From NCBI RefSeq assembly GCF_003334815.1, contig NZ_QOWO01000036.1: DNA of 37,286 nucleotides, one strand, 5' to 3'. How positions within the stretch are numbered: the first letter of the stretch is position 1; every line of letters starts with the position of its first letter. The notes under the pieces are model-generated. The model was given only the letters and a program-made list of their open reading frames with translations. It ran no database searches and had not been told where the DNA came from. Origin of the DNA: Escherichia coli. GTDB taxonomy: Bacteria; Pseudomonadota; Gammaproteobacteria; Enterobacterales; Enterobacteriaceae. A program made the translations under genes and the position numbers. Below are positions 37,210 to 37,286 of the stretch, piece by piece.

Positions 37210-37286
37210 TGTACTGCACCCATTTTGTTGGACGATGAAATGGAATAGCCCCTAATATGTCAAAGCCAAAATACCCTTTTGAAAAG
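37210..37286 (+). mobile_element. Left terminus of an IS3-family insertion sequence (IS150-like), truncated by the window end
   Basis: Begins TGTACTGCACC (IS3-family TG terminus); ATG at 37257 opens an ORF starting MSKPKYPFEK, which I recognise as the start of IS150 OrfA (InsJ). Confidence 0.55.

What the first reader, a model, noticed from the sequence alone, without database searches (positions are those of the whole stretch)
37210..37286. IS150-like left end upstream of trg, absent from the K-12 arrangement I recall
From 37210 the sequence has the look of an IS3-family left end: TG terminus and an OrfA start 47 bp in, reading MSKPKYPFEK. From memory, the reference K-12 chromosome has a hok/sok-type locus upstream of trg rather than an IS150 copy, so this may be a strain-specific insertion that could disrupt a toxin-antisense pair.
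Basis: partly seen in the sequence, partly recalled or inferred. Interest (0 to 1): 0.5.

Follow-up and report, generated by a model that had tools for sequence, protein, structure and literature searches.

The report
IS150 inserted in hokB/sokB locus
The last 77 bases of the window are the exact left end of the mobile element IS150, inserted into the control region of the hokB/sokB toxin-antitoxin locus next to trg; this insertion hotspot is already published and about one in ten sequenced E. coli carry it, so the finding is real but ordinary.

Summary
Window 37210-37286 matches IS150 at 77 of 77 bases, with the IRL at 37210-37234 and the orfA ATG at 37257 reading MSKPKYPFEK.

K-12 MG1655 and W3110 have an uninterrupted sokB-mokB-hokB locus at this position. 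In genomes that share the junction, the element is a full 1443-bp IS150 with a 3-bp AAC duplication, followed 15 nt later by the mokB ATG and then hokB.

The insertion lies inside the SokB terminator hairpin. That is 76 nt after the predicted hokB mRNA 5' end. It separates the hokB promoter and 5' leader from mokB/hokB, and it cuts sokB in two.

It is not new. "IS150 between trg and mokB" is a published hotspot in E. coli B mutation-accumulation and evolution lines, and sokA::IS150 and sokE::IS150 are also described.

- **Frequency of this junction:** 557 of 5426 complete E. coli genomes carry it, including a de novo event in a laboratory W3110 lineage.
- **Other hok loci:** equivalent insertions occur in hokC, hokE and a plasmid hok. 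A mirror-image, inverted insertion sits on the other arm of the palindrome in 13 genomes.
- **Share of all copies:** about 74% of chromosomal IS150 left ends lie at one of the four hok-locus junctions (hokA, hokB, hokC, hokE).

Interest is low. The target rule is the only mildly novel point.

The parts
37210..37286 (+). First 77 nt of IS150 (an IS3-family insertion sequence); the window ends inside the element.
   Evidence: 77/77 identity to MG1655 IS150. BLAST hits are annotated 'IS3-like element IS150 family transposase'.
37210..37234 (+). Left terminal inverted repeat (IRL) of IS150, starting with TG.
   Evidence: Unique exact match in the window, 0 expected in shuffles. It pairs with the IRR in the full copy.
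37257..37286 (+). Start of IS150 orfA (insJ/InsA): ATG plus 9 codons, MSKPKYPFEK.
   Evidence: Direct reading. Full OrfA translated from the identical copy in L001. IS3-family transposase profile hit.
37207..37209 (+). AAC: the left copy of the 3-bp target-site duplication. The right copy lies beyond the window.
   Evidence: In W3110-P, FDAARGOS_1370 and other genomes the IS is flanked by AAC...AAC, while the empty site in W3110 has a single AAC.
37134..37209 (+). 5' 76 nt of the hokB mRNA leader, now cut off from mokB/hokB. The 5' end is predicted, not measured.
   Evidence: Rfam RF01794 hit of 72.4 bits against a gathering score of 59. Only model positions 1-84 truly match. The intact K-12 locus gives 109.7 bits over the whole model, which runs to the hokB AUG.
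37176..37209 (-). 3' 34 nt of the sokB antisense RNA gene: part of the 5' arm, the loop, the 3' arm of the terminator hairpin, and the U-rich tail. This part is separated from the sokB promoter and from the first 23 nt of sokB.
   Evidence: Mapped from the MG1655 annotation sokB 1492119-1492175, with window 37209 corresponding to MG1655 1492142. The hairpin folds at -22.2 kcal/mol, z = -3.7, and is found as the only terminator-like site in the intact locus.
36882..37133 (.). trg-hokB intergenic DNA, identical to K-12. It holds a sigma-28-like trg promoter on the minus strand, read by eye at 36921-36947, and the hokB promoter region just upstream of 37134. The IS leaves all of it untouched.
   Evidence: 0 mismatches in 328 nt against W3110. 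The promoter assignments are by eye and by analogy with other loci; the sigma-70 scan found no consensus match.
35241..36881 (-). trg (methyl-accepting chemotaxis protein), an intact neighbouring gene.
   Evidence: 546-aa ORF, annotated trg in homologous genomes.

Best explanation
The window ends in a copy of IS150, a 1443-bp IS3-family element. IS150 has orfA and orfB, which are fused by a -1 frameshift at A AAA AAG to make the DDE transposase. It moves by copy-out/paste-in and leaves a 3-bp duplication. This copy has transposed into the hokB/sokB type I toxin-antitoxin locus that lies upstream of trg.

The insertion point is inside the palindrome that forms the SokB terminator hairpin. In hok-sense the palindrome reads GGCCCCGACCGATA-TTTC-TATC[AAC]^CGAGGCC. 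The point lies 76 nt after the predicted hokB mRNA 5' end and 12 nt (15 nt counting the duplication) before the mokB start codon. IS150 orfA points the same way as hokB.

- Shown: the identity of the element, the empty site in K-12, the full-length element with its AAC duplication in genomes sharing the junction, the position relative to sokB, mokB and hokB, and the recurrence of the same junction in independent backgrounds and in paralogous hok loci.
- Inferred: the insertion inactivates normal hokB/sokB regulation. It removes the hokB promoter and the 5' leader (which by analogy with R1 hok carries the tac/ucb elements) from the mokB-hokB reading frames. It leaves a sokB promoter that now reads through 26 nt of Sok into the IS150 right end without its terminator.
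- Inferred: the recurrence is mainly a target preference of IS150 for this hairpin or motif, rather than selection.
For: - Identity: 77/77 to IS150, and the IRL is unique in the window.
- Empty site in the references: MG1655 and W3110, with 0/328 mismatches in the flank.
- Full element: 1443 bp with AAC...AAC, then mokB/hokB, in W3110-P, the pig isolate NT1F10 and the divergent FDAARGOS_1370.
- Element features: the OrfA and OrfB profiles fit the IS3 family (OrfB 350.7 bits against a cutoff of 160), the downstream ORF is a Hok toxin (100.8 bits against a cutoff of 73), and the A6G frameshift site is present.
- Frequency: the left junction is in 557 genomes and the right junction in 576 of 5426.
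- De novo event: the W3110-P copy is 1443/1443 identical to the resident K-12 hokA copy, while the reference W3110 lacks it.
- Position in sokB.
- Equivalent insertions with locus-specific duplications: hokC (ACC), hokE (CCC), plasmid hok (ACC).
- Mirror-image inverted insertion on the other hairpin arm in 13 genomes.
- Literature: IS150 between trg and mokB was called a hotspot, with 10 of 50 IS150-mediated mutations in mutation-accumulation lines (PMC5289635). It was also seen in PMC5419217, PMC4301190 and PMC3576414. sokE::IS150 and sokA::IS150 are described in PMC11551753.
Against: - The window stops 77 nt into the element. For this particular genome, the full length of the IS, its right end and the presence of hokB beyond it are inferred from other genomes.
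- 576 genomes have the right junction and 557 the left, so a few genomes have IS150-mediated rearrangements at this site.
- No expression data were available. Loss of hokB/sokB function is inferred from anatomy. Read-through from IS150 orfB into the intact mokB Shine-Dalgarno sequence and ATG could still express HokB.
- The sigma-70 scan did not locate the hokB or sokB promoters.
- Genome counts are not independent events, because shared ancestry inflates them.
Confidence: 0.9

Rival explanations
1. The 77 nt are a solo IS150 end, or the border of an IS150-mediated inversion or deletion. In the source genome, hokB would then not lie beyond the element.
For: The window ends inside the IS, so this cannot be excluded directly. 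The left-junction and right-junction counts differ, 557 against 576, which shows that rearranged cases exist.
Against: Every junction-sharing genome inspected has the complete 1443-bp element followed by AAC and mokB/hokB. The two counts differ by only about 3%.
Confidence: 0.04
2. The recurrence of this insertion across strains and experiments is driven by selection for loss of hokB/sokB (removing a costly or dangerous toxin locus), not by any target preference of IS150.
For: The evolution-experiment papers interpret it as adaptive inactivation of redundant toxin-antitoxin systems (PMC5419217; bioRxiv 10.1101/527788). mokB structural variants were detected early in 42% of LTEE populations and were fixed in 50% of the later non-mutator clones analysed (PMC4301190).
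Against: Ten of 50 IS150-mediated mutations hit this site in mutation-accumulation lines, where selection is minimised (PMC5289635). Selection for inactivation would not demand the same nucleotide position in hokB, hokC, hokE and a plasmid hok, nor a mirror-image site with the orientation flipped. Other IS types could inactivate the locus anywhere. The two causes are not mutually exclusive.
Confidence: 0.15
3. The insertion matters mainly through trg: it would disrupt or activate the chemoreceptor gene's expression.
For: A short-read survey assigned 'a single IS150 insertion into ... trg' to an antibiotic-susceptibility association (bioRxiv 10.1101/527788). The IS is in the trg upstream region.
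Against: The IS starts 328 nt upstream of the trg ATG, and the 328 nt are identical to K-12. A sigma-28-type promoter can be read about 40-70 nt upstream of trg, at 36921-36947 on the minus strand, far from the IS. IS150 orfA/orfB point away from trg.
Confidence: 0.05
4. The junction is an assembly or chimera artefact at a repeat.
For: Contigs often break or mis-join at IS copies, and the window ends in the IS.
Against: The same junction, base for base, is present in 557 independently assembled complete genomes, with the matching right junction and target duplication.
Confidence: 0.01

Closest known systems
IS150 insertion hotspot between trg and mokB in E. coli B (REL606/REL4536 derivatives; LTEE, mutation-accumulation and other evolution experiments)
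   Same: It has the same element, the same intergenic interval and the same locus disrupted. It was described as a hotspot (PMC5289635) and listed as trg/mokB or mokB/trg IS150 insertions (PMC5419217, PMC3576414, PMC4301190).
   Different: Those are new mutations in laboratory lines of E. coli B. Here the insertion is a standing feature of a K-12-like strain (9 SNPs in 35.8 kb against K-12) and of about 10% of complete genomes. I could not compare exact coordinates with those papers, because the texts I could read do not give the junction sequence.
hokA/sokA::IS150 of E. coli K-12 MG1655 (insJ/insK, 3720633-3722075)
   Same: It is the same element (1443/1443 identical to the W3110-P hokB copy), inserted in the leader/sok region of a paralogous hok locus close to but not in the hok ORF.
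   Different: It is in the opposite orientation, has no target duplication, and carries a 38-bp deletion relative to intact hokA alleles. It is found in 1668 genomes.
sokE::IS150 (XL1-Blue and more than 400 natural isolates; PMC11551753) and hokC::IS150
   Same: IS150 sits at the equivalent position of the Sok hairpin in the same orientation, with a 3-bp duplication immediately 5' of YGRGGCY. The counts are 389 genomes for hokE and 1170 for hokC.
   Different: These are different paralogous loci with different duplicated triplets (CCC, ACC).
IS186 insertions in hokC and hokE of K-12 (Pedersen and Gerdes 1999, Mol Microbiol 32:1090; cited from memory and from reference 133 of PMC11551753; the paper could not be opened)
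   Same: A chromosomal hok locus is inactivated by an IS located next to, but not in, the toxin ORF.
   Different: The IS family (IS4) and the insertion position are different.

Membership tests
IS150 (IS3 family, IS150 group) | Terminal inverted repeats of about 25-30 bp beginning 5'-TG...CA-3'. | tested here: met
   The IRL at 37210-37234 is an exact match. The IRR is not in the window, but is present and pairs with the IRL in the full copies of junction-sharing genomes.
IS150 (IS3 family, IS150 group) | Nucleotide identity to the reference IS150. | tested here: met
   77/77 in the window. 1443/1443 for the W3110-P copy at the same site against the MG1655 IS150.
IS150 (IS3 family, IS150 group) | Two overlapping ORFs (orfA with a helix-turn-helix, orfB with a DDE/rve domain) joined by a -1 frameshift at A AAA AAG. 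| tested here: inconclusive
   Only the first 10 codons of orfA are in the window. In homologous genomes OrfA and OrfB match NF033516 'IS3 family transposase' (OrfB 350.7 bits against a cutoff of 160). A6G is at IS position 530. PGAP annotates a programmed frameshift.
IS150 (IS3 family, IS150 group) | 3-bp target-site duplication. | tested here: inconclusive
   The window holds only the left AAC (37207-37209). AAC...AAC is seen in L001 and L007, and a single AAC in the empty W3110 site.
hok/sok type I toxin-antitoxin locus (target of the insertion) | hok mRNA leader / sok region matching the Rfam covariance model RF01794. | tested here: met
   72.4 bits against a gathering score of 59 in the window, with only model positions 1-84 genuine. 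109.7 bits for the intact K-12 locus.
hok/sok type I toxin-antitoxin locus (target of the insertion) | Antisense Sok RNA with a 5' single-stranded tail and a terminator hairpin. | tested here: met
   The annotated sokB folds into a 14-bp stem with a U-rich tail, -22.2 kcal/mol, z = -3.7. In the window only its 3' 34 nt remain adjacent to trg.
hok/sok type I toxin-antitoxin locus (target of the insertion) | A Hok toxin ORF of about 50 aa with an overlapping mok ORF. | tested here: inconclusive
   These lie outside the window. In junction-sharing genomes hokB follows the IS (NF007279, 100.8 bits against a cutoff of 73).
hok/sok type I toxin-antitoxin locus (target of the insertion) | Functional toxin expression and antisense control. 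| not testable with these tools
   This needs RNA and phenotype experiments.

The most novel reading that the evidence does not exclude
In nature IS150 behaves almost as a dedicated hok/sok-locus element. It recognises the Sok terminator palindrome, or a short motif in it, and inserts so that its right end (IRR) abuts [3-bp duplication]-N-G-R-G-G-C-Y.

The observed sites fit this rule:
- CGAGGCC in hokB, hokC and the plasmid hok.
- TGGGGCT in hokE.
- CGGGGCC on the opposite strand for the inverted hokB insertions.
- AGAGGCT, inferred, for hokA.

The two arms of the palindrome are used in mirror-image orientations. About 3,800 of about 5,150 chromosomal IS150 left ends in 5,426 complete genomes lie at one of the four hok-locus junctions (hokA, hokB, hokC, hokE). 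As far as I could find, this target rule has not been published; the papers only say 'hotspot'. If it holds, it would explain the parallel 'adaptive' toxin-antitoxin inactivations seen in evolution experiments as mutational bias.
Probability: 0.45. Interest if true: 0.45.

Novelty: already known. Interest (0 to 1): 0.15.

Why it matters
For annotation, the window's end should be labelled hokB/sokB::IS150, not an unexplained repeat or a trg lesion.

Biologically, hokB is, from my own knowledge of the literature (Verstraeten et al. 2015, Mol Cell 59:9, not opened here), the effector of Obg/ppGpp-dependent persistence in K-12. On that basis, the roughly 10% of E. coli strains that carry this insertion may lack that pathway or regulate it differently.

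For experimental evolution, the strict positional and orientational recurrence supports reading 'parallel' mokB/trg IS150 mutations as mutational hotspots rather than as evidence of selection. None of this changes current understanding, because the insertion and its hotspot nature are already in the literature.

Tried and rejected
- Full-text searches for 'hokB'+'IS150' and 'sokB'+'IS150' returned nothing. The papers use 'mokB', 'trg/mokB' or 'hok/sok' instead, and were found.
- Schneider et al. 2000 (Genetics 156:477) and Pedersen and Gerdes 1999 could not be opened. My recollection that they describe IS150 insertions in hokB-sokB and IS-inactivated hok loci is marked as memory only.
- The Rfam hit appears to cover 37134-37286. 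I rejected its second half as a forced alignment of IS150 sequence to model positions 85-157 (one search compared).
- The sigma-70 promoter scan of the intact locus found no site, so the hokB and sokB promoters are placed only by analogy.
- I looked for similarity between the target and the IS150 terminal repeats, the kind of IR-like targeting known for IS911. The resemblance (CAAC...GGGG) was weak and I do not rely on it.
- The first junction query (60+60 nt) over-counted, giving 813 genomes, because paralogous hok::IS150 junctions also reach 80% coverage. I replaced it with 120+60 nt queries.
- An apparent orientation specificity was an ascertainment effect of the query design. I tested it with an inverted chimeric query. 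This showed no inverted insertion at the same nucleotide, but 13 at the mirror site.

Full report
**1. The observation**

The last 77 bases of the window (37210-37286) read TGTACTGCACCCATTTTGTTGGACGATGAAATGGAATAGCCCCTAATATG TCA AAG CCA AAA TAC CCT TTT GAA AAG. They are identical at 77 of 77 positions to the first 77 bases of the annotated IS150 of E. coli K-12 MG1655. The 25-nt left inverted repeat occurs exactly once in the window, where none is expected by chance. No IS150 right end is present in the window, because the window stops inside the element. trg is the 546-codon ORF at 35241-36881 on the minus strand, preceded by ydcI and hglS/ydcJ. The IS therefore begins 328 nt upstream of the trg start codon.

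**2. What lies at this position in reference genomes**

In MG1655 the interval upstream of trg holds sokB (1492119-1492175), mokB (1491962-1492129) and hokB (1491922-1492071), with no IS. The W3110 reference is the same. The 328 nt between trg and the IS in the window are identical to W3110. The window's last non-IS base corresponds to MG1655 1492142, inside sokB.

The window as a whole is a very close relative of K-12. It has 9 substitutions and no gaps over 35,840 nt against W3110-P. Its first 1,446 nt, a VgrG/Rhs region, do not align, so the source is not K-12 itself.

**3. Extending the element through genomes that share the junction**

The 405 nt from trg to the window end occur at 100% identity in many complete genomes.

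In W3110-P, a laboratory lineage, the element runs for 1443 bp. It ends in ...GGGGTCAGTACA and is flanked by AAC on both sides, where the empty site has one AAC. It is followed after 15 nt by the mokB ATG, and then by hokB, yncP, ydcA and cybB. The same is true of the pig isolate NT1F10. It is also true of FDAARGOS_1370, whose flanks differ from the window by several substitutions on both sides.

The W3110-P copy is 1443/1443 identical to the resident K-12 hokA copy. It contains orfA, the A6G frameshift site and orfB. OrfB matches the IS3-family transposase profile at 350.7 bits against a cutoff of 160, and the downstream ORF matches the Hok toxin profile. Because the W3110 reference lacks the insertion, W3110-P records a new transposition into this site in the laboratory.

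**4. Frequency**

A query of 120 nt of hokB leader plus 60 nt of IS150 is covered at 80% or more in 557 of 5,426 complete E. coli genomes. The right junction (IS150 plus mokB/hokB) is covered in 576 genomes. IS150 left ends total 5,910 places in 2,848 genomes, of which 5,155 are chromosomal. About one IS150 copy in ten is therefore at this single site.

**5. Anatomy of the hit**

The Rfam model RF01794 ('sok') matches the intact K-12 locus at 109.7 bits, in the hok-sense orientation, from GGGUGCC to the hokB AUG. By analogy with R1 hok, GGGUGCC is the predicted hokB mRNA 5' end. In the window the model scores 72.4 bits against a gathering score of 59. Only model positions 1-84 (window 37134-37209) are genuine; the rest is IS150 sequence forced onto the model.

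The annotated SokB RNA folds into a 14-bp hairpin, GGCCUCGGUUGAUA-GAAA-UAUCGGUCGGGGCC, followed by UUCGUCUUUC (-22.2 kcal/mol, z = -3.7). This hairpin is the only terminator-like site in the intact locus. IS150 sits inside this stem.

The consequences follow from the anatomy; they have not been measured:
- The hokB promoter and the first 76 nt of the leader stay next to trg. They now read into IS150 orfA.
- mokB, with its Shine-Dalgarno sequence and ATG intact, and hokB are displaced by 1.4 kb.
- The sokB promoter and the first 26 nt of Sok now read into the IS150 right end, and the Sok terminator is left on the other side.

This is the same kind of lesion as the IS-inactivated hokA, hokC and hokE loci of K-12.

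**6. Why the same site recurs**

The literature already calls this a hotspot:
- In mutation-accumulation lines of E. coli B REL4536, 10 of 50 IS150-mediated mutations were insertions between trg and mokB (PMC5289635).
- The same insertion is listed in anaerobic-adaptation lines, together with IS150 insertions at hokC/nhaA and hokE (PMC5419217).
- It also appears in early LTEE polymorphisms (PMC4301190) and in diversifying populations (PMC3576414).
- sokE::IS150 in XL1-Blue and in more than 400 isolates, and sokA::IS150 in MG1655, are noted in PMC11551753.
- A short-read survey flagged hok/sok homologues as mobile-element hotspots, and reported 'a single IS150 insertion into trg' that may be this one (bioRxiv 10.1101/527788).

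My own comparison adds detail. In the four loci below, IS150 has the same orientation (IRL toward the hok promoter, IRR toward mok). Each carries a duplication made of its own local triplet, immediately 5' of YGRGGCY:

| Locus | Source | Site (hok-sense) |
|---|---|---|
| hokB | window lineage, W3110-P | TATC[AAC]CGAGGCC |
| hokC | PKF8 and ET625 (junction read in PKF8) | TATCA[ACC]CGAGGCC |
| hokE | T2 | TATCAA[CCC]TGGGGCT |
| plasmid hok | pAMSH1 | AATTA[ACC]CGAGGCC |

Because the duplicated triplets differ between loci, these are separate transpositions, not gene conversion.

My junction queries could only find one orientation, so I built an inverted chimeric query. No genome has the inverted element at the same nucleotide. 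However, 13 genomes have it 15 nt upstream with duplication ACC. That is the mirror position on the other arm of the palindrome: in sok-sense, TATC[GGT]CGGGGCC, again with the IRR next to the motif. This symmetry is what a sequence- or structure-directed target choice predicts.

The K-12 hokA allele does not fit simply. It is inverted, has no duplication, and lacks 38 bp present in intact hokA alleles. Its IRL junction lies at GTA|AGAGGCT in sok-sense. That is compatible with an original insertion next to a similar motif followed by an adjacent deletion, but this is conjecture.

Junction counts are 1,668 genomes for hokA, 1,170 for hokC, 389 for hokE and 557+13 for hokB. Together that is about 3,800 of 5,155 chromosomal IS150 left ends, or about 74%. 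These counts are genomes, not independent events.

**7. Rivals**

- A rearranged or solo end in the source genome cannot be excluded from 77 nt, but it is rare among junction-sharing genomes.
- Selection for loss of the toxin-antitoxin locus probably contributes to spread. It does not explain nucleotide-level and orientation-level recurrence, or the hits in mutation-accumulation lines.
- An effect on trg is unlikely. The 328-nt upstream region is intact, and a sigma-28-type promoter can be read at 36921-36947 on the minus strand, far from the IS.
- An assembly artefact is excluded by hundreds of independent assemblies.

**8. Verdict**

The feature is a known element at a known hotspot in a known locus, so its novelty is 'already known' and its interest is low. 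The only modestly new point is the explicit target rule (mirror-image use of the Sok palindrome, with the IRR next to N-G-R-G-G-C-Y) and the estimate that most chromosomal IS150 copies sit in hok loci. Both need a phylogenetically corrected count and a transposition assay.

Noticed in passing
window 1-1446 (ORF 72-1415, minus strand): A VgrG-like ORF and Rhs-associated region does not align with K-12 W3110-P. The remaining 35,840 nt are 99.975% identical, with 9 substitutions at 2325, 5871, 8373, 12780, 21670, 24756, 26428, 26829 and 33186. The source is a K-12-like strain that keeps the vgrG-rhsE part that K-12 has lost.
   Followed up: partly
window 37134-37286; L003 1781-1932: Rfam RF01794 'sok antitoxin' is modelled in the hok-sense orientation: it runs from the hok mRNA 5' end to the hok AUG, not along the antisense RNA itself. 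cmscan reports a full-length, above-threshold hit across the IS150 junction even though model positions 85-157 are aligned to IS150 sequence. This is a trap for automated annotation.
   Followed up: yes
L011 (NZ_CP046006.1, strain 1919D3) 2106-3548; 13 genomes in all: IS150 is inserted in the opposite orientation 15 nt upstream of the common site, with duplication ACC. This is the mirror position on the other arm of the SokB terminator palindrome.
   Followed up: yes
L004 (MG1655 3720633-3722075) compared with L013 (intact hokA, strain 1919D62): The K-12 hokA::IS150 allele has no target duplication and lacks 38 bp of the mokA/sokA region that intact alleles have. Intact alleles are present in 2,817 genomes. 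The classic K-12 insertion is therefore an insertion plus an adjacent deletion.
   Followed up: partly
window 37031-37090 (+): An unannotated 19-codon ORF (MAKLANPNDEKFWKTARNFVK) with a purine-rich stretch before its ATG lies between the trg promoter region and the hokB promoter region. It is identical in K-12, where nothing is annotated.
   Followed up: no
window 36921-36947 (minus strand): A sigma-28 (FliA)-type promoter-like sequence, TAAGTAAT-N11-GCCGATGA, lies upstream of trg. It was read by eye and not tested with a tool.
   Followed up: no
L005 4287-5100 and L008 3987-4500 (hokC loci of strains PKF8 and ET625): The hokC locus in these strains carries IS150 in the leader and also an IS4-family element (annotated IS421) immediately downstream of hokC. 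One small toxin locus is therefore bracketed by two different IS elements.
   Followed up: no
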